Origin: a virus
Taxonomy: Duplodnaviria > Caudoviricetes
Virus record (IMG/VR): IMGVR_UViG_3300028048_000077
Coordinates: 64,772 to 128,771 of that record
Length of the DNA stretch: 64,000 nucleotides
Reading direction: 5' to 3' (one strand)
The notes below the pieces were generated by a model. That model saw only the letters and a program-made list of their open reading frames with translations, did no database searches and was not told the DNA's origin. The position numbers and the translations under genes are program-made. Positions 11,083 to 47,543 of the stretch are shown here, in pieces; position 1 is the first letter of the stretch, and every line of letters begins with the position of its first letter.

Positions 11083-12270
11083 TTATACTCCATATTTAAT
11101 ATAAAACTCTATTAATTTAGCTTTATACTCTTCATATCCAATTCCAGCATATCCAATTATTATATGATATAATTCTGATCTATGCCCTTCTGTATTATTC
11201 AATATTTTTTCTATTAAATCAAAAACTTCCTTTAAACAGAACATATATTGATTTATCATATTATTATACATAGAATTAAGATATGATTCTTTTGATTCTT
11301 CTTCCTCAGCTAATTTTCTTTTCTTTTCTTCAAATATTTTTCTTATATAATTATCTGTTTCAATTCTGTTACGTTTTTCCCTCTCTTCTATAATTCTTTT
11401 TAGTTTTTCCTCCTCTTCTTTAATCCTTTTTAGTTTTTCTGCTCTCTTTTTAATTAATTTTTCCTGGCATTCTTTAAATGCCTTTCTAAAAATATTTTTC
11501 TCTTCTTCAGATAAATATTTAAAAGGTCTTAAAAATCTTTCTAATTCTCTATTATTATTTTCATCAAGTTGTTTTCTTAATAATATTCTTCTTTTCGCAT
11601 CAATTTCCTTTCTTTTATCTAATAATTCTTTATAATACTCATTTGTATGATTTAAATTAATTTTTAAAGAATAGTCTTCTAAAACTCTTTTATCATTATT
11701 AATTTTAGATGGATCATCATCAACCAAATCCATAAAATCTAATAACCATTTACCTCTAGTAGGATGCCTAAGTTTTCTTAATGCTTTAGCTTCAATTTGC
11801 CGTATTCTTTCTTTTGATACTCCAAAATGTTTTCCAGTATTTTCCAAAGTTTCCATATTATCTAAAAATCTATACTTTAAAACATTCTTTTCTCTATCAT
11901 ATAAAGTATCAAGTATTATATGTATTCTTGCATTATATTCTTCTTTACAAATATCATTTATCATAACATCTTCAGTATAATAAACATCATCTATTAATTC
12001 AGATATGTACTCATTTTCTTTTAATAAATTTCTTTTATACTTTGATACATTTCTATTTATTAAAAGATTAATAAACTGAGCTGGATAGTTATTCTTTAAA
12101 CCACCTTTCTCTATAAGCTCTTCAACAATATTTTCAAATATATCTTCAGATACATCTGAATACTCTGGAAAATGAGAATCAATATATCCTATAACTTTAT
12201 CTTTAAAGATATTATAAGAATCGATATCTCCTTCCATCATTCCATTAACAATTTTAGCATACGATTTCAT
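11083..12270 (-). CDS. sigma-70 region-4 containing protein with C-terminal coiled coil
   Basis: [43 protein letters not shown] closely matches SigA region 4.2; no clear region 2. Confidence 0.8.
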
Positions 12271-14186: not shown

Positions 14187-14221
14187 CAAAAAAGAAAGGG
14201 AAGCATTGTATTGCTTTCCCT
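14187..14221 (-). terminator. intrinsic terminator of the mini-peptide unit
   Basis: minus strand GGGAAAGCAA-TACA-ATGCTTCCC-TTTCTTTTTT. Confidence 0.7.
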
Positions 14222-14257
14222 TGAGGAATTACAAGCCAGTATGTTGGTGATATGATG

Positions 14258-14338
14258 CTAGAAAATTAAGAATTTTATCAATTCTATTATCAGACTTTCG
14301 ATTAAGCCCAATATGAATTGTATTAAAATCTTCATCAT
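14258..14338 (-). CDS. 26-aa amphipathic peptide, type I toxin-like
   Basis: AGAAAGGAGG RBS; MMKILIQFILGLIESLIIELIKFLIF; own promoter motif and terminator. Confidence 0.65.
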   Translation of the reverse strand: MMKILIQFILGLIESLIIELIKFLIF

Positions 14339-14402
14339 ATCATTAACCTCCTTTCTGCTGGCGTGAATAGGGTATAGAGTAGTTGGTGAAGAAGCTATAC
14401 CC

Positions 14403-14425
14403 TATTCATATCTATAGTATATAAC
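14403..14425 (-). promoter_or_regulatory. putative early promoter
   Basis: GTTATATACTATAGATATGAATA on the minus strand; 14-bp inverted repeat TGAATAGGGTATAG/CTATACCCTATTCA directly downstream. Confidence 0.65.
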
Positions 14426-14452: not shown

Positions 14453-14478
14453 TCCCTCTACCCAAATGGGTAGAGGGA
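14453..14478. terminator. conserved-stem hairpin
   Basis: TCCCTCTACCC-AAAT-GGGTAGAGGGA. Confidence 0.75.
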
Positions 14479-20126: not shown

Positions 20127-20519
20127 TTACCACATGTAAGTATTAGGGCTTTCACCATTATCACGTACATCTACATGGCAACCCCAGTCATAAAGACCGA
20201 TTCCATCGAAACCAATCTGCTCACAGTACCATTTGAGCTGTTCTGGAGTATGGCAATATTCATAGTCTGGAGTCTGTACATCTGCTGCTGTTCCATCAAC
20301 ATGCTGAGAATTAGGTACACCACCTACTTCAGCATTATGAGCTGGGCAACGATATGCACAAGAAATCTCAAGTGGACCACCAATCATTTCACGAAGAGCT
20401 TCAAGCTTTTCGAGAAGAAGAGGACTTACCTTATCTGCAGTTTCTGGACCACAATCACAATGACCCTGAGATGCACCATGGCACATCAATTCTTCGGCGG
20501 AAAAATGTTCACTAGGCAT
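20127..20519 (-). CDS. peptidase M15 family Zn peptidase (endolysin candidate)
   Basis: YRCPAHN..VGG..NSQH...AAD and HVDVR motifs. Confidence 0.9.
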   Translation of the reverse strand: MPSEHFSAEELMCHGASQGHCDCGPETADKVSPLLLEKLEALREMIGGPLEISCAYRCPAHNAEVGGVPNSQHVDGTAADVQTPDYEYCHTPEQLKWYCEQIGFDGIGLYDWGCHVDVRDNGESPNTYMW

Positions 20520-20539
20520 TTTTAAAATCTCCTTTCAAT

Positions 20540-20914
20540 TTAAGCAAATGCTGGATGATGCTGAGCTTTCATCTTACTAATATGACTATTTATATTCGCC
20601 ATATGGCGATGAGCATCATTATATTTTTCTCCTTCTGGTGTTTCAGAAGCTTTTAATCCCGTTCTTTTTCTACCATCATTTGTTCTTTGCAAAGCTTTTC
20701 TAGTTTTATCAAGTCTATCTTGAGCTCTTTGTTTCAATTTATCTACTACTTCTTTAGTAAATTGTTTGTAATTATGCTCTTCTTCGAGAGACTCAATATA
20801 ATTTTCAAGAGCGGCAATATAACCAGCAGCATATGCATCCATCACATATTCCTGCTGAGCTTCATTGAGGCTATTCATAATAGCTGTCTCTTTTAATACT
20901 TCATCTAAAATCAT
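20540..20914 (-). CDS. small probable internal head protein
   Basis: acidic N-terminus with LxE sites and basic C-terminus. Confidence 0.5.
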   Translation of the reverse strand: MILDEVLKETAIMNSLNEAQQEYVMDAYAAGYIAALENYIESLEEEHNYKQFTKEVVDKLKQRAQDRLDKTRKALQRTNDGRKRTGLKASETPEGEKYNDAHRHMANINSHISKMKAQHHPAFA

Positions 20915-22101: not shown

Positions 22102-22173
22102 CTCTTATTCACCTCTTATAGCATTGTCCAAAAAAGCACATTTTAATCATATACTCTTAAAGAAAAAATTAAG

Positions 22174-22192
22174 CATATACTATATATATGAA
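22174..22192 (+). promoter_or_regulatory. putative early promoter (sRNA1)
   Basis: CATATACTATATATATGAA. Confidence 0.65.
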
Positions 22193-22311
22193 AAGGTACC
22201 CATTCCTTTTTGTGTTTTCCATTATTAATTATGAAATTTAATTTCATAATTAAACTCCTTTCATTATAAAATATCCCATTGGGGAGGGGGTATATTATCC
22301 CCTTATTTTTT
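22189..22311 (+). ncRNA. candidate small RNA 1 with anti-RBS/anti-AUG segment
   Basis: promoter motif, no sense ORF with RBS, TTCATAATTAAACTCCTTTC, terminator AGGGGG..CCCCTTATTTTTT. Confidence 0.55.
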
Positions 22312-22318
22312 ATATAAA

Positions 22319-22372
22319 TTGTAATATTCGGAAAATTTAAACATATACTATATATGTGAATAAAAGGATTCA
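22319..22372 (+). repeat. 54-bp promoter/5'-end block duplicated at 35824-35877
   Basis: 53/54 identity by manual alignment. Confidence 0.9.
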
Positions 22373-22455
22373 CCTCCTTTCTGTTTGTTCTTCTCATCTC
22401 CTTTCAATTCACCCATATGGGGAGGGGGCCTCATCAGCCCCCTTATTTTTTTTTT
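22357..22455 (+). ncRNA. candidate small RNA 2 with 16S rRNA 3'-end-like anti-SD
   Basis: promoter at 22342-22362; GGATTCACCTCCTTTCT plus a second CATCTCCTTTC; terminator AGGGGGC..GCCCCCTTA-T10. Confidence 0.6.
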
Positions 22456-22463
22456 CATAATAA

Positions 22464-22492
22464 ATCCCTCTACCCAATTAGGGTAGAGGGAT
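22464..22492. terminator. conserved-stem hairpin
   Basis: ATCCCTCTACCC-AATTA-GGGTAGAGGGAT. Confidence 0.75.
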
Positions 22493-22501
22493 AATCTTAT
22501 T

Positions 22502-33775: not shown

Positions 33776-35668
33776 TTACCACTTACCGTTCTCAACATTA
33801 CCCATTGGAGTAACGCTAGTAACTGCACCGTTAACACCAGATGCATAAGTGTTCTGGTTAGCAGTGTAATCGTTCATAGCATTAGAACCAATTGGATCCT
33901 TAGAACCAAGAACTTCACGGAGACCACGAGGGTTAACGATAGTCAGACGACCCTGTACAGGCTGATACTGAATGAGCTTATAACGCTCGAATGCAGTTAC
34001 TGCTGGCAGGTATACGTTCTCTACCGCACGAATTTCATTGGATACATAGAACTGATAATCAAACAGCTTATACATAACACGCATGGAGTTATGAGGAATA
34101 AGCAGAATGATCAGATTGTTGTTGTTACGCAGTTTATCAGAGGATACGAACTGATATACACGCTTATCAGAAGTAACAACAGTCTTCTTAAACTCAAGCT
34201 CAACAGGACCAATATTGCTTGGAGTAGTATAGGTGTGCTGAGTAGGAGTAATACGACGAATGATGTCAGGACGACCAATGATGTTAACAGTCATGTTGCT
34301 ATCATTGAGTACCTGCAGCATGGAAGTTACATAGCTATCAAGCTGATCCATGAAGGTTGCTGCTCTCCAAGAGAGAGGATCCTGCAGGAAGTTGGAAGGT
34401 GGTACGAAGTCGTAAGCACCCTGGAACTTCTGGGACTCAGGCATACCAACAAAGGAATTATCCAAGAAGTTATGAATATCATCATCTTTCCAGTTGCGGA
34501 GAGAAATGTTGATGATGCTCATCAGCTTAGTAACCTGATTTACCTGATACAGAGCATTGACATCTTTGATTTCTTCAGGGCTGATAGGTACACTAATGTG
34601 TGGTGCCTCTGGGATCTCGAAGATATCAGTCTTAGCCTTCCACTTGCTGTAGCAAGTCTTGAACTTAGCAGAGGAAGTATCGAGTACTGCATGGAGAATT
34701 ACACCCTTAATACGAGCATCAGCAGTATTCAGCATGAACATGTTGTCCTTCATGCAACCATTGATAACTGGCTGGATATAAGAAGGATCTGCACCTGGAT
34801 CTCCAATATTTACAGGAGAAGTACGGTTGAACATTACATAATCGAAGTCACCATAATGAGGCTCGAAGTGCATCTCATTGATAGTAACAACATGGTCAAC
34901 TGCAACACCAGTACCAGTTGCCTTAGTAATTGCAGAACCAGAAACTGCAGGAGTTGCTACTGTCAGATACTCTTCACCATCAGCAACCTTGCTGTTTACC
35001 AATACACCAACAACTGCAGTCTTGATGGAGAGATCACCTACACCACCGAAATCATTAGATACGATGTTATAGGTATTATCCTCAGGCAATGCAATATAGA
35101 TATCCTTCATAGGAACAGAATTTGCGATTGCATCATGAATCTTATTCTGCTCGAGGAAGATATCGATCTCATTACCGTTGGTATCTACGAGATAACGATA
35201 TTCCATAGTCAGAGTGAACTTAGGGCTCTGAGCTACATCCTTTGGAATACACTGCTCGAATACACAGTTAGTGGTAATGTTCTTATGCATAGGCAAAGCC
35301 ATACCAATTACTGGGTTGAAGCTACCAAGAGGAGCGTTCTCGTTCAGTGGGCTAGTAATTGCAGAGATATCATTCTCGAACAGTGCATTCATCATCTGCT
35401 CATGATCTTCTACTGCATACGGATTGTTCTTAAACTTAGGATCTTCAGGATCATAAGAATTCTCAAGGAATGCATCACGCATAGCCTCACGGGTTGCCTC
35501 ATGCATAAAGAATGCATCTGGCTGACGATAAATATCAATTGCAGACTCAGACAGAGCTGCTTTTGCTACGTCTACAAACTGTTCAGCAAGTGGACGCATT
35601 GGATCATTTTCATAAGCACGAAGCTGCTTTGCAAGCAGTTCTTTACGGCTTTCACCAACTACTGGCAT
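33776..35668 (-). CDS. major capsid protein precursor
   Basis: 630 aa; strongest codon bias and raised GC in the window; acidic propeptide ending near PLNE; own late motif and terminator. Confidence 0.75.
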   Translation of the reverse strand: MPVVGESRKELLAKQLRAYENDPMRPLAEQFVDVAKAALSESAIDIYRQPDAFFMHEATREAMRDAFLENSYDPEDPKFKNNPYAVEDHEQMMNALFENDISAITSPLNENAPLGSFNPVIGMALPMHKNITTNCVFEQCIPKDVAQSPKFTLTMEYRYLVDTNGNEIDIFLEQNKIHDAIANSVPMKDIYIALPEDNTYNIVSNDFGGVGDLSIKTAVVGVLVNSKVADGEEYLTVATPAVSGSAITKATGTGVAVDHVVTINEMHFEPHYGDFDYVMFNRTSPVNIGDPGADPSYIQPVINGCMKDNMFMLNTADARIKGVILHAVLDTSSAKFKTCYSKWKAKTDIFEIPEAPHISVPISPEEIKDVNALYQVNQVTKLMSIINISLRNWKDDDIHNFLDNSFVGMPESQKFQGAYDFVPPSNFLQDPLSWRAATFMDQLDSYVTSMLQVLNDSNMTVNIIGRPDIIRRITPTQHTYTTPSNIGPVELEFKKTVVTSDKRVYQFVSSDKLRNNNNLIILLIPHNSMRVMYKLFDYQFYVSNEIRAVENVYLPAVTAFERYKLIQYQPVQGRLTIVNPRGLREVLGSKDPIGSNAMNDYTANQNTYASGVNGAVTSVTPMGNVENGKW

Positions 35669-35846
35669 TGTAAATTCCTCCTTTTTAGAGTATATATAAA
35701 TACTCTGTTGATTATCATTGTTATTCTAGCATGCCTATTGGAATGCAATTACATTATAGTTGAATTAGCAAAATGTAATATTAAAAAAATATTTAAAGTT
35801 TAACATATCTATTTGTACTATTTTTGTAATAGTCGGAAAATTTAAA

Positions 35847-35867
35847 CATATACTATATATGTGAATA
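35847..35867 (+). promoter_or_regulatory. putative early promoter (sRNA3)
   Basis: CATATACTATATATGTGAATA. Confidence 0.65.
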
Positions 35868-35957
35868 AAAGGATTCATCCTTATTCAAGTTCATGTTTTT
35901 CTATCCTTAAAAGGAATAGGATGTGTTTAGGCCACAACACACTCCTATTCTTTTTTT
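35862..35957 (+). ncRNA. candidate small RNA 3
   Basis: 5' hairpin TGAATAA..TTATTCA; linker TTCATGTTTTTCTATCCTT (complement of AAGGA-N9-ATGAA); terminator GAATAGGA.TGTGTT/AACACACTCCTATTC-T7. Confidence 0.55.
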
Positions 35958-35965
35958 ATAATTTA

Positions 35966-35991
35966 TCCCTCTACCCTAACTGGGTAGAGGG
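35966..35991. terminator. conserved-stem hairpin
   Basis: CCCTCTACCC-TAACT-GGGTAGAGGG. Confidence 0.75.
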
Positions 35992-35998
35992 AATAAAA

Positions 35999-37417
35999 TT
36001 ACATTTCATCTAATTCATACTTATCAGATTTCTTTTCTTTTTTCTTTTTCTTCTTATCTTTCTCTTCATCTTCTTCAGGTTCTTCTATATCTTCTTCGTC
36101 TTCTTTAGATTCTTTATCTTTATCCTCATCTGACTCTTCATCTTCATCAAATTCTGGTAAATCTAATTCTTCATCATCTTCGTCTTTATCTTTTTTCTTT
36201 TTCTTCTTATCTTTCTCTTCATCTTCTTCAGATTCTTCGTCATCTTCTATATCATCAAATTCTGAATAATCTGGTACTTCTTCTACATCATCATCTTTAG
36301 TTTCTGAAGATTTATCTTTCTCTTCATCTTCTTCTTTATCTTCGTCATCTGGTTCTTCTTCATCCTTTTTCTTTTCGCTCTTCTTTTTGTCTTTACGATA
36401 TTTTTCTGCTTCTTTATCTACTTTATTAGCTTCTTCTATTATTTTGGTTAAAGCCAAAAAGATAGCCATATGACGTTGTAAGATAATTTGGTTTTCTATA
36501 TATGATTTACTATCAAAATCTTTAGTAAGAGCATCTTTTAAGAGAGTCTTCAGATCTAAAAGCTTTTTAATTACAAAGTTTATAGTATTTATTGTACTCT
36601 CTTTTCTAGTAAATCCAGAAAGACGCTCAATAGACTTTGTGATATTATCATATAATTTAACGAACTGAGATTTTAATTCAGTCTTTTTGAGCTCAACCAC
36701 TTCTGGAGGTAAATCTGAGAAGAGTTCCTGATCTGCTTGCTGGAACTCAGAGCCTGAACCAGCAGCCGCAGCTCCTCCAGTATTGTCGTCAGGATTATCT
36801 CCTCCAGCGTCTCCTTCATCATCCCCAAGATCCTCGTCACCATCTTCACCATCGGCATAATCAGGTGGGTCTTCAGAACCAGTATCATCTCCACCACCAG
36901 CTCCAGGATCAGCCCCACCGCCAGCACCAGCATCGTTACCACCAGCATCAGGTTGAGCACCGTCTCCTGTATCAGCATTAGCGTCATCTCCTTCTCCTTC
37001 AGCATAATCTGGTACATCATCATCTCCACCACCAGCATCTGCAGGGGCATCAGCAGTATCATCTGCAGGAGGTGCATCATTCGTAGGAGCTTCAGCAGGC
37101 TCATCAGGAGGTGCATCGTCTCCTTCTCCTTCAGCATAGTCTGGTACAGGATCATCCTCTTCAGGAGTATCATCTGCAGGGGCAGGATTATCTTGTGCAG
37201 GAGGTGGATCTTGTGGAGCAGGATTATCTGCAGGAGGTGGTGTTTGATCATTAGCAGGAGGAGTATCCTGAGCTGGAGGATCATTTTGAGGAGCAGGTGG
37301 AGTTGTGACCCCACCATTATTCGGAGGATTTTGAGTATTATCATCTCCTAATGGTTTACCATTAGAAGTGATCACTTCATTTATATGAGTTAATCCAGCA
37401 AGATTAAAGAAATTCAT
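35999..37417 (-). CDS. acidic low-complexity protein, scaffold/core-like
   Basis: P/D/A/G-rich N-half with repeated PDYA(E/D)GE(G/D), helical core, D/E/K tail; upstream of the capsid gene. Confidence 0.55.
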   Translation of the reverse strand: MNFFNLAGLTHINEVITSNGKPLGDDNTQNPPNNGGVTTPPAPQNDPPAQDTPPANDQTPPPADNPAPQDPPPAQDNPAPADDTPEEDDPVPDYAEGEGDDAPPDEPAEAPTNDAPPADDTADAPADAGGGDDDVPDYAEGEGDDANADTGDGAQPDAGGNDAGAGGGADPGAGGGDDTGSEDPPDYADGEDGDEDLGDDEGDAGGDNPDDNTGGAAAAGSGSEFQQADQELFSDLPPEVVELKKTELKSQFVKLYDNITKSIERLSGFTRKESTINTINFVIKKLLDLKTLLKDALTKDFDSKSYIENQIILQRHMAIFLALTKIIEEANKVDKEAEKYRKDKKKSEKKKDEEEPDDEDKEEDEEKDKSSETKDDDVEEVPDYSEFDDIEDDEESEEDEEKDKKKKKKDKDEDDEELDLPEFDEDEESDEDKDKESKEDEEDIEEPEEDEEKDKKKKKKEKKSDKYELDEM

Positions 37418-39876: not shown

Positions 39877-41559
39877 TTAAAACTCAGGCATAGTGATTTT
39901 CTTCATATCATCTGGTAATATCATAGTTAAGTTATACATAGATTGTAAGCATTCTATTTCTTCTTTAAGAATACATTGACCATTCAGATCTATAAATCTT
40001 CGTCTACTATTAAGAATAGTTTCTAATTCTTTATTTGCTTCCATAGAATATAAAGATTTAATGGATACAGTATCACCATCATAGTCTCCACCCATAGAAT
40101 CAAGATAAAGATTACATATCTTAGTAGTATCTGAGAATTTATTTGTAGTATCTGTATTCAATTCATCTTCAGAAATATCTGGATAGAATTTATAGAATTC
40201 GTTATTAACTACCATTGGTTTAGTTTTTAGAGTAGATGATACTCTTACTTTAGAAGGAAATTGATTGAAATAAGAATCCATTGGATAACGTGTAATGAGT
40301 ACACACTTATCCTTTACAGCTTCACAAGCAGCCATAAATATCAAATCACACCAAGTCATTGGTCTAACAATAGCTGGTATATTTGATATTTCTTCATTAT
40401 TCTTTATTTTATCATATTCTTCTCTATCTATATTATATCCTATAAAATATATTTTATATTCTTTTTTCTTATTTTCAGGATCTCTAATAGTAATAGGTCT
40501 AAATCTATTTGCAATACCATGAGCAAATCTATCTAACTCTTCTTTTATTACTTCATCTGAAAATTGAACCATGTAATCATTTCCTATATTAAGAAATGTA
40601 TCTTTACCATTCTTATCTTTAATAGGAAATACTTCATTACCAGAGAATTGTCTCTCAAAGAAACGTCTAATGAAGAATACAATCTGAGGAAAATAATTTG
40701 CTGTTAATGATGCAAGTGGTACAGCAGTATAATCCAAATCAGTAATCATATCTTCTATATTCTCTACTTTTAACTCAGGAGCAGAGATAACTGTACGGGC
40801 AGAATAGTCTGTAGTCTTAGACATATTTGCTCTTCTAAGTACACCAAACTTACCTGCTATACCAGTAACAGGTTGTCCATTAAAAATACCTTTAGTAAAG
40901 TAATCATAAATCTCAGCTAACGTATCTTGAATCCTACCTCTGATAGAATTAGAAAGAGATAAACCATAGTCATGAGATTCAGATAAACTTCTAGTAGCAA
41001 TAATAAGCTTAGAATATAACTGATTGATATCTCCTACTCCTACATATTTACCAGTAGTCTTTACATCTCTATAGTATGCAGGAATTACTACCATATTCTT
41101 TACAAAGATTCTATCTCTATATTTATTAAGAAAATCTATAGTAGCATCTCTACTAGGAGAACCATTCTTTTTAAGTTTCAATTTGCTAAAGTTTTCTTGT
41201 AAGAATTTGATTCCAGTCTTACCATTATCATCTTCTACAAGTTCACCATTAGTAATAGTAAAATTCTTAAGACCATGTACTATATCTTTAATCTTTCTAT
41301 CTACTTTACACCATACTTTATATGCCATAGGATGAATAAATATTTCATTCTCCCCTAAAGGAATCTGAGCAAAGATAGTAGATCTTTCATCTTTGGTAAT
41401 ACCAAAGATTTCATTTGAAAGTAAACCATCTATAGTAGGTGTAGAATTAGCATCAAAGAATATAGGATTATCTATAGGCTTTAACTTATTAACTTTAACA
41501 AAGTTAGAAATATTCAAAGGTTCTGTTTTAAAATGCTTTAATTGTTGTTTATCAGCCAT
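39877..41559 (-). CDS. phage RNA polymerase beta'-like subunit (catalytic N-terminal half)
   Basis: GLLSNEIFG, GKFGVLRRANMSKTTDYSARTVI, ITRYP and catalytic GGDYDGD. Confidence 0.92.
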   Translation of the reverse strand: MADKQQLKHFKTEPLNISNFVKVNKLKPIDNPIFFDANSTPTIDGLLSNEIFGITKDERSTIFAQIPLGENEIFIHPMAYKVWCKVDRKIKDIVHGLKNFTITNGELVEDDNGKTGIKFLQENFSKLKLKKNGSPSRDATIDFLNKYRDRIFVKNMVVIPAYYRDVKTTGKYVGVGDINQLYSKLIIATRSLSESHDYGLSLSNSIRGRIQDTLAEIYDYFTKGIFNGQPVTGIAGKFGVLRRANMSKTTDYSARTVISAPELKVENIEDMITDLDYTAVPLASLTANYFPQIVFFIRRFFERQFSGNEVFPIKDKNGKDTFLNIGNDYMVQFSDEVIKEELDRFAHGIANRFRPITIRDPENKKKEYKIYFIGYNIDREEYDKIKNNEEISNIPAIVRPMTWCDLIFMAACEAVKDKCVLITRYPMDSYFNQFPSKVRVSSTLKTKPMVVNNEFYKFYPDISEDELNTDTTNKFSDTTKICNLYLDSMGGDYDGDTVSIKSLYSMEANKELETILNSRRRFIDLNGQCILKEEIECLQSMYNLTMILPDDMKKITMPEF

Positions 41560-41631
41560 TGTATTCACCTCTTATGCTAAAGTCAAAATCACAAAAATAT
41601 AAAGGCAGCCCCATAAGAGGCTGCCTCATAT

Positions 41632-47257: not shown

Positions 47258-47280
47258 GTTATATACTATATATATGAATA
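47258..47280 (+). promoter_or_regulatory. putative early promoter
   Basis: GTTATATACTATATATATGAATA plus 5' hairpin TGAATAGATATA/TATATTTATTCA. Confidence 0.65.
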
Positions 47281-47333
47281 GATATAGAGCAATTATATTT
47301 ATTCAAAGTATATAACGAAAGAAGGTGTTTACC

Positions 47334-47432
47334 ATGTTTCTAATTAGTAGGATGAAAGATATACTAGACATTTTGATTCTTATATCTAACATCATAGAAC
47401 TAATAGAAATATTGAAAATCTTCTGTAATTAA
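47334..47432 (+). CDS. 32-aa amphipathic peptide, type I toxin-like
   Basis: GAAGGTG RBS; MFLISRMKDILDILILISNIIELIEILKIFCN. Confidence 0.55.
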   Translation: MFLISRMKDILDILILISNIIELIEILKIFCN

Positions 47433-47543
47433 TTGTTACTAAAATAATAAAGTTATATACTAAAGAAATTACTTATCTTTAACAAAAACTTCTTCTTGGG
47501 ATAAGATAATATATAGATACTACGAAAGAAGAAAATAAACTTA

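What the first reader, a model, noticed from the sequence alone, without database searches (positions are those of the whole stretch)
35824..35957. Third sRNA-like unit sharing a 54-bp promoter/5' block with sRNA2 but with a different seed
Seen: 35824-35877 matches 22319-22372 at 53/54 nt, 13.5 kb away. It continues into a 5' hairpin, a linker TTCATGTTTTTCTATCCTT (complement of AAGGATAGAAAAACATGAA, an RBS+ATG-like string) and a strong terminator, with no ORF. It lies against the direction of the flanking late genes. Inference: a modular sRNA cassette with constant promoter and scaffold and a variable targeting segment.
Basis: partly seen in the sequence, partly recalled or inferred. Interest (0 to 1): 0.78.

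Follow-up and report, generated by a model that had tools for sequence, protein, structure and literature searches.

The report
Strain-specific orphan early-promoter RNA cassette
A giant gut or rumen phage carries, just upstream of its capsid gene, a 125-bp inserted cassette with one of its own early promoters, a hairpin and a terminator but no gene; it probably makes a ~95-base non-coding RNA, but its closest relatives lack it and no target was found.

Summary
35824-35877 matches 22319-22372 at 53/54, the closest of 300 pairs among 25 copies of one phage promoter.

- **Promoter:** it resembles the early (virion RNA polymerase) promoter of Bacillus phage AR9. Of the 25 copies, 22 lead into a 5' hairpin, a strong ribosome-binding site and an ORF. 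Three do not: this unit and the tandem pair at 22.2-22.5 kb.
- **Predicted RNA:** G35863 to about 35957. It has a 5' hairpin, a 21-nt unpaired linker that reads as the antisense of SD-N9-AUG, and a long hairpin followed by U7 (z -4.7).
- **Interpretation partly supported:** only 15 nt of the RNA are shared with unit 2, and the terminators differ. No target better than chance exists in the 128.8 kb available.
- **Conservation:** the unit is a ~125-bp indel. It is identical in two other metagenome samples of the same strain. It is absent from relatives with 90, 87, 81, 81 and 59% capsid identity.
- **Sister locus:** 97% and 91% relatives carry a micropeptide cassette where this strain has the tandem units. 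These cassettes therefore turn over quickly, much like PeSL elements of T4-type phages.

Verdict: a plausible young phage sRNA of csRNA-like design, or an empty by-product of cassette shuffling. The scan had already noted the tandem units on this genome.

The parts
35824..35877 (+). 54-bp block shared with 22319-22372 (53/54). It holds the upstream TTGTAA element, the spacer, the core promoter and the first 15 transcribed nt.
   Evidence: It is the most similar of 300 promoter pairs (mean 31.7, sd 4.0; the next best is 48).
35847..35863 (+). Core of the early-type promoter. The predicted start is G35863.
   Evidence: 25 strict copies of the core exist in the genome. Spacing and the +1 G are inferred from the AR9 early consensus in PMC5312081.
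35863..35886 (+). 5'-terminal hairpin of 10 bp with a 2-nt bulge, starting at +1.
   Evidence: The same feature follows most other copies of the promoter.
35888..35908 (+). Unpaired 21-nt linker carrying an anti-AUG (CAU) and, 9 nt later, an anti-SD (UCCUU).
   Evidence: It pairs with phage start regions better than shuffled versions on average (-11.7 against -9.1 +/- 0.95 kcal/mol), but no single site stands out.
35909..35957 (+). Terminator-like hairpin (stem core 35913-35950, one bulged C) plus a seven-T run at 35951-35957.
   Evidence: The simple scan does not call it. The T-run is native to the site.
35826..35950 (.). Approximate extent of the indel relative to the 90%-identity relative L033. 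The boundaries are uncertain by a few bases because T-runs lie on both sides.
35967..35991 (.). Conserved palindromic stem-loop that follows the stop of the upstream - strand gene. The same element lies after unit 2 (22466-22490) and at 14454-14477.
   Evidence: It is also repeated 15-19 times in relative G001 and is present at this site in L033-L035 and L045.
35750..35762 (-). Late-promoter-like motif upstream of the capsid gene, one mismatch from the AR9 late consensus AACA-N6-TA. It points away from unit 3.
   Evidence: Conserved in L003, L004-6, L033, L034, L035 and L045. The consensus is from PMC5312081.
33776..35668 (-). Major capsid protein gene, the downstream neighbour.
35999..37417 (-). 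Gene for a 472-aa acidic protein, the upstream neighbour. Unit 3 points towards its 3' end.
   Evidence: It has no family hit.
22319..22456 (+). Paralogous orphan unit 2.
22174..22312 (+). Orphan unit 1. It shares its terminator type with unit 2.

Best explanation
Unit 3 is a young, strain-specific insertion of about 125 bp. It places a complete copy of the phage's early-type promoter in the gap between the 472-aa gene and the capsid gene, pointing against both.

Together with the T-run already present at the site, it forms a promoter, a 5' hairpin, a 21-nt open linker and a terminator. Early in infection this should give a non-coding RNA of about 95 nt (G35863 to about U35957).

The open linker is the antisense of a ribosome-binding site, a 9-nt spacer and a start codon. 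If the RNA acts, it most likely pairs with the start region of an mRNA and blocks ribosome entry, as streptococcal csRNAs are proposed to do. The mRNA could be from the phage or the host, and it is not in the sequence available.

- **Shown:** the promoter copy, the fold, the absence of a led ORF, and the indel.
- **Inferred:** transcription, the start point, termination, and any target.
For: - **Promoter family:** there are 25 strict copies with an upstream TGTAA element. Of these, 22 are followed within 25-230 nt by a strong SD and an ORF, which fixes the direction.
- **Match to AR9:** the core fits the AR9 early consensus, with 6 nt to a conserved G. Hairpins in the other units begin at that G.
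- **Fold:** z -4.69, with the linker unpaired.
- **Start-region bias:** the linker binds 126 phage start regions better than 30 shuffled linkers (-11.74 against -9.12 +/- 0.95) and better than coding-region controls (-8.04).
- **Paralogues:** two further orphan units have the same layout. Unit 1 mirrors 26 of 28 nt of the start region of a 138-aa phage gene.
- **No protein rival:** no gene was called here on identical contigs, and the longest opposite-strand frame of the family has no relative among 5.8 billion proteins.
- **Precedent:** short promoter-to-terminator units are reported as sRNAs in jumbo phage 201phi2-1 (PMC11512511).
Against: - There are no transcript data.
- The unit is absent from relatives with 90, 87, 81, 81 and 59% capsid identity. 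It is invariant in the two other samples that carry it. So there is neither conservation nor covariation to show selection.
- No target beats chance. The best ungapped complement is 20/27, against 19.4 on average for shuffles (maximum 21), and that site is not a gene start.
- The anti-SD is only 5 nt.
- The U-tract was already at the site, so the terminator may be accidental.
- The - strand of the body looks like an inverted cassette leader (hairpin, SD, ATG). This fits a scrambled cassette as well as a designed seed.
- No orphan units were seen among 13 strict promoter copies in relative G004.
Confidence: 0.45

Rival explanations
1. It is an empty or scrambled regulatory cassette. Recombination among the many repeated promoter, hairpin and stem-loop modules dropped a promoter block and an inverted leader fragment next to a T-run. 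It may be transcribed, but the RNA has no function of its own.
For: - The unit is a clean ~125-bp indel, absent from all relatives at 59-90% capsid identity.
- At the sister locus the 84% relative has no cassette, the 91% and 97% relatives have a micropeptide cassette, and this strain has two orphan units.
- The spacer of the promoter, which is free to vary in the other 23 copies, is identical in units 2 and 3. This points to recent copying.
- The - strand of the body has the layout of a cassette leader.
- PeSL cassettes of T4-type phages cause this kind of indel between close relatives (PMC2839356).
Against: - Three orphan units in one half genome share the layout of hairpin, open anti-start-region linker and terminator.
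- Unit 1 carries a 26/28 mirror of a real start region 62 kb away.
- The promoter keeps every consensus element.
Confidence: 0.35
2. It acts in cis. A polymerase-loaded convergent promoter, or the antisense RNA, stops or cuts read-through transcripts running from the 472-aa gene into the capsid gene. This uncouples the two genes or keeps early transcription out of the late cluster.
For: - The unit sits between the stem-loop that ends the upstream gene and the late-type promoter of the capsid gene, and faces upstream.
- PeSL stem-loops are proposed to keep early transcription out of virion genes.
Against: - Relatives manage without it at the same site.
- The transcript ends before it reaches any coding sequence.
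Confidence: 0.1
3. It encodes a small protein. Candidates are the 37-codon or 13-codon frame on the - strand, or the 50-codon GTG frame on the + strand.
For: - Open frames exist.
- The 37-aa frame and the 84-aa frame across units 1-2 share 18 residues, because both read through the 54-bp block.
- The 13-codon frame has an AAGGA-N9-ATG start.
Against: - The shared residues are the translated promoter, which occurs 25 times upstream of real genes.
- The 37-aa frame has no spaced SD.
- The + frames run through two hairpins.
- No gene was called on identical contigs.
- The 84-aa frame has no relative.
Confidence: 0.04
4. It is a replication origin or a primer RNA promoter.
For: It is an orphan promoter in AT-rich intergenic DNA.
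Against: - GC skew follows gene direction only, with no turn at 22 kb or 36 kb.
- Relatives lack the unit.
Confidence: 0.02

Closest known systems
Short intergenic promoter-to-terminator transcription units called sRNAs in jumbo phages 201phi2-1 and phiKZ (PMC11512511)
   Same: It is a jumbo phage with its own multisubunit RNA polymerase. A terminator lies directly downstream of a start site, the unit is under 250 nt, and the function is unknown.
   Different: Those units were seen by long-read RNA sequencing, while this one is only predicted. One of them is conserved across genera, while this one is limited to one strain. There is no sequence similarity.
csRNAs (cia-dependent small RNAs) of streptococci, RF02379 (PMC3091779)
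   Same: Both have two stem-loops separated by an unpaired stretch that carries an anti-start-codon (CAU) and an anti-SD. They come as several paralogues of about 50-200 nt in a low-GC Gram-positive setting.
   Different: This unit has a phage promoter, not a CiaR-dependent one. It does not match the Rfam model. Its anti-SD is only 5 nt. It is not a member, only an analogue in design.
PeSL (promoter-early stem-loop) cassettes of T4-type phages (PMC2839356, PMC4122927)
   Same: Both are repeated early-promoter and stem-loop modules in intergenic DNA, associated with small genes of unknown function. They mark the insertions, deletions and replacements that separate close relatives.
   Different: PeSLs use sigma-70-type promoters and occur in a different phage lineage. 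They are described as flanking genes, not as making a stand-alone RNA. Mini-circles were not testable here.
AR9 early (virion RNA polymerase) promoters, AAATATATATTAT-N6-G (PMC5312081)
   Same: Both have a long invariant AT-rich core, 6 nt to a conserved G, tens of copies, and mostly genes of unknown function downstream. The capsid gene here also carries an AR9-like late motif.
   Different: The core differs by one base in the central octamer, and this phage has an extra TGTAA element upstream. Which polymerase reads it has not been shown.

Membership tests
This phage's early-type promoter family | Core motif ATACTATA-N-A-Y-R-TGA | tested here: met
   The copy at 35850 is one of 25 strict matches.
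This phage's early-type promoter family | TGTAA element about 20 nt upstream of the core | tested here: met
   It is present at 35825-35829 and in most other copies. Relative G004 has the same element.
This phage's early-type promoter family | Drives a transcript starting at the conserved G | not testable with these tools
   Inferred from AR9 and from hairpins that begin at that G.
Intrinsic terminator | Stable stem-loop directly followed by a U-run | tested here: inconclusive
   The fold gives a long stem followed by U7. The consensus scan does not call it, because of the bulge and its loop rule. Termination by the phage polymerases is unknown.
csRNA, RF02379 | Match to the Rfam covariance model | tested here: not met
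   No hit at the gathering score, and no hit up to E 10 in 35780-36000.
csRNA, RF02379 | Unpaired region between two stem-loops with an anti-SD and an anti-AUG | tested here: met
   CAU and UCCUU lie 9 nt apart in 35888-35908.
csRNA, RF02379 | CiaR-dependent promoter | tested here: not met
   The promoter is the phage's own.
PeSL-type mobile regulatory cassette | Repeated promoter and stem-loop modules in intergenic DNA | tested here: met
PeSL-type mobile regulatory cassette | Indels between close relatives at these modules | tested here: met
PeSL-type mobile regulatory cassette | Sigma-70-type early promoter in a T4-type phage | tested here: not met
   This is a phiKZ/AR9-like phage (RNAP beta, phrog_2986). 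The spacing to a sigma-70-like -35 element is 19 nt, and the sigma-70 scan finds nothing on the + strand.
Type I toxin-antitoxin antisense RNA | Small toxic ORF with a working start on the opposite strand, overlapped by the RNA | tested here: inconclusive
   The - strand has only 13- and 37-codon frames. The 37-codon frame has no spaced SD, neither was called by gene finders, and no relatives exist. Toxicity could not be tested.
Jumbo-phage intergenic sRNA (as in 201phi2-1) | Observed transcript with mapped 5' and 3' ends under 250 nt | not testable with these tools
   No RNA data are available.

The most novel reading that the evidence does not exclude
The three orphan units belong to a mobile system that builds new translational repressors. 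A constant early-promoter and 5'-stem module is joined, by recombination at the repeated promoter and hairpin sequences, to an inverted copy of the leader and start region of some gene. This gives an early RNA that silences that gene or its relatives, and the cassettes move and turn over between strains.
Probability: 0.12. Interest if true: 0.7.

Novelty: new member of a known kind. Interest (0 to 1): 0.4.

Why it matters
If the RNA is made and acts on a start region, it would be an example of a giant phage acquiring a new small regulator by cassette shuffling within the divergence of a species. Its birth would be visible as a clean indel against close relatives.

It would also add a Firmicutes-type jumbo phage to the few phages with candidate trans-acting sRNAs.

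If it is inert, it still shows that early-promoter cassettes in this phage group move and are replaced quickly. It also shows that promoter-plus-terminator units without genes can arise by accident, which is a caution for calling sRNAs from sequence alone.

Tried and rejected
- **Rfam:** nothing at gathering thresholds. At E up to 10 on the unit there was only noise far below the cut-offs.
- **tRNA/tmRNA:** none.
- **Exact-pattern scans:** two scans of viral contigs for parts of the unit found nothing. The single metagenome scan hit only a GC-rich bacterial promoter by chance (L007).
- **BLAST:** GenBank phages gave no match in near or distant mode. The three RNA bodies gave no homologue in relatives G001 and G004.
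- **Orphan units in relatives:** all 13 strict promoter copies in G004 have ORFs. Looser hits without ORFs were mirror images of promoters on the other strand. G001 uses a looser motif and was not resolved.
- **Target search:** there is a start-region bias on average but no outstanding site. The best site, at genome 36856 on the - strand, is not a gene start.
- **Origin of replication:** rejected on GC skew.
- **Protein-coding reading:** rejected.
- **Not completed:** a final significance test of local complementarity of the whole RNAs against all start regions could not be run, because the script machine was lost.

Full report
**Setting**

The window is the second half of a 128,771-bp virus record rated 52% complete, with 30% GC. 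It encodes a phiKZ-type RNA polymerase beta subunit (39877-41568, phrog_2986, E 3.7e-81). The gene just below the finding is the major capsid protein (33776-35668, - strand, phrog_20655). The finding lies in the 330-nt gap between the capsid gene and a 472-aa gene (35999-37417, - strand).

**Observation**

- 35824-35877 and 22319-22372 agree at 53 of 54 positions.
- A 34-nt part occurs only at these two sites, with none expected by chance.
- The 97-nt + strand RNA folds to -26.9 kcal/mol, z -4.69. Its layout is a 5' hairpin, 21 unpaired nt and a long terminal stem.

**What the block is**

- The centre of the block is one of 25 strict copies of a single motif in the record, with an upstream TGTAA element.
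- 22 copies are followed within 25-230 nt by a strong ribosome-binding site and an ORF on the same strand. This fixes the direction and shows the motif is a promoter.
- Most transcripts would begin with a hairpin whose 5' arm is the conserved start sequence.
- The core resembles the early, virion-polymerase promoter of Bacillus phage AR9. Both have a long AT-rich core and 6 nt to a conserved G at +1 (PMC5312081). By that alignment the start is G35863.
- The genes behind these promoters are nearly all of unknown function. One is sigma-like. This is as reported for early genes of jumbo phages.
- The capsid gene instead has an AR9-like late motif at 35762-35750 on the - strand. It is conserved in all relatives examined. 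Unit 3 and the capsid promoter are therefore divergent neighbours.

**The three orphans**

Only the copies at 22177, 22345 and 35850 lack a led ORF and run into a + strand terminator after about 100 nt. All three fold as a 5' hairpin, an open stretch and a terminator.

- In the 54-nt frame, units 2 and 3 are the most alike of 300 promoter pairs (53, against a mean of 31.7 and sd 4.0). This includes the spacer, which varies freely in the others.
- Beyond the block the RNA bodies are barely alike (z 2.9). The 3' flanks are alike (z 8.1) and the 5' flanks are not.
- The shared 3' flank is a T-run plus a conserved palindromic stem-loop (35967-35991, 22466-22490).

**Relatives**

- Contigs from two other samples carry the capsid gene and the whole gap at 100% identity (L043, L044).
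- Relatives with 90, 87, 81 and 81% capsid identity (L033, L034, L035, L045) are colinear on both sides but lack the unit. So does a 59% relative.
- Against L033 the difference is one block of about 125 bp (about 35826-35950), set directly before a T-run that L033 also has. The U-tract of the 'terminator' is therefore native to the site.
- At the sister locus the picture is equally fluid. The 84% relative has no cassette there.
- The 91% and 97% relatives have, in the same orientation, an early promoter, a 5' hairpin, a ribosome-binding site and a 42-codon peptide gene.
- This strain and a 99% relative have the orphan units.
- The promoter type and the stem-loop are shared with phages down to 46-59% capsid identity.
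- This behaviour matches the PeSL regulatory cassettes of T4-type phages (PMC2839356).

**Coding rivals**

- The - strand has 13- and 37-codon frames, and the + strand has 30- and 50-codon frames.
- The residues shared by the - strand frames of units 2 and 3 are simply the translated promoter.
- No gene was called here on identical contigs.
- The 84-aa frame across units 1-2 has no relative in the protein collection.

**Targets**

- The linker carries CAU and, 9 nt later, UCCUU, which is the antisense of SD-N9-AUG.
- Against 126 phage start regions it binds better on average than shuffled linkers (-11.74 against -9.12 +/- 0.95) and better than coding controls (-8.04). Its best site (-18.5) is no better than the best of the shuffles.
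- The best ungapped complement in the record is 20/27, equal to shuffles, and it is not a gene start.
- For the family, unit 1 mirrors 26 of 28 nt of the start region of a 138-aa gene at genome position 24414. Unit 2 has a 14-nt perfect complement to the start region of the gene at 20127-20519.
- The - strand of unit 3's body has the layout of a cassette leader (hairpin, SD, 9 nt, ATG). The 'seed' may therefore be an inverted leader of a gene in the missing half, or a relic.

**Comparison with known systems**

- Short promoter-to-terminator units are reported as sRNAs in jumbo phage 201phi2-1, three of them intergenic (PMC11512511).
- The two-stem design with an open anti-start-region stretch is that of streptococcal csRNAs (PMC3091779). 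There is no model match, so this is an analogue and not a member.

**Verdict**

- It is young, limited to one strain, invariant where present, and has no detectable target.
- My best reading is an early ~95-nt non-coding RNA that may act on a start region (0.45). A functionless product of cassette shuffling is close behind (0.35).
- An earlier follow-up of this scan reached a similar view of the tandem units on this same genome.

Noticed in passing
L038:1-360 and L036:1-127 (relatives of window 22102-22501): Where this strain has orphan units 1 and 2, the 97% and 91% relatives have a stem-loop, an early promoter, a 5' hairpin, a strong ribosome-binding site and a 42-codon peptide gene in the same orientation. 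The 84% relative (L037) has only the stem-loop. The locus is a hot spot for cassette replacement.
   Followed up: partly
window 22212-22263 versus genome position 24414 (- strand, outside the window): The body of unit 1 is the antisense of 26 of 28 nt spanning the ribosome-binding site to codon 4 of a 138-aa gene that is second in an early operon. Half of this segment lies in a perfect 14-bp AU palindrome within the RNA.
   Followed up: partly
window 22393-22406 versus 20519-20545 (- strand): Unit 2 has a 14-nt perfect complement to the start region of the 130-aa gene at 20127-20519, 1.9 kb away.
   Followed up: no
window 35750-35762 (- strand); L003, L004-6, L033-35, L045: A motif one mismatch from the AR9 late-promoter consensus (AACA-N6-TA) sits about 80 nt upstream of the capsid start codon. 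It is conserved in relatives down to 46% capsid identity. This suggests that the phage group shares AR9-type late transcription.
   Followed up: partly
window 14454-14477, 22466-22490, 35967-35991; G001 throughout: A 10-bp-stem palindrome recurs after gene ends. It is kept almost letter for letter in phages with only 59% capsid identity (15-19 copies in G001). It has no U-run on either side, so it is not a standard intrinsic terminator.
   Followed up: partly
window 14187-14425, 47258-47540; genome 38228, 56528, 56782: There is a family of stand-alone early units, each with a promoter, a 5' hairpin, a strong ribosome-binding site and a 26-39-aa Ile/Leu-rich peptide gene.
   Followed up: no
window 11083-12270 (- strand): A 395-aa protein under an early-type promoter hits sigma-factor families (phrog_351, E 2.8e-10).
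   Followed up: no
L042:1-149 (99% relative, unit 1): The few substitutions in unit 1 include an A-to-G change in the 5' stem that keeps pairing as G-U, and a change in the loop. This fits the predicted hairpin but comes from a single sequence.
   Followed up: no
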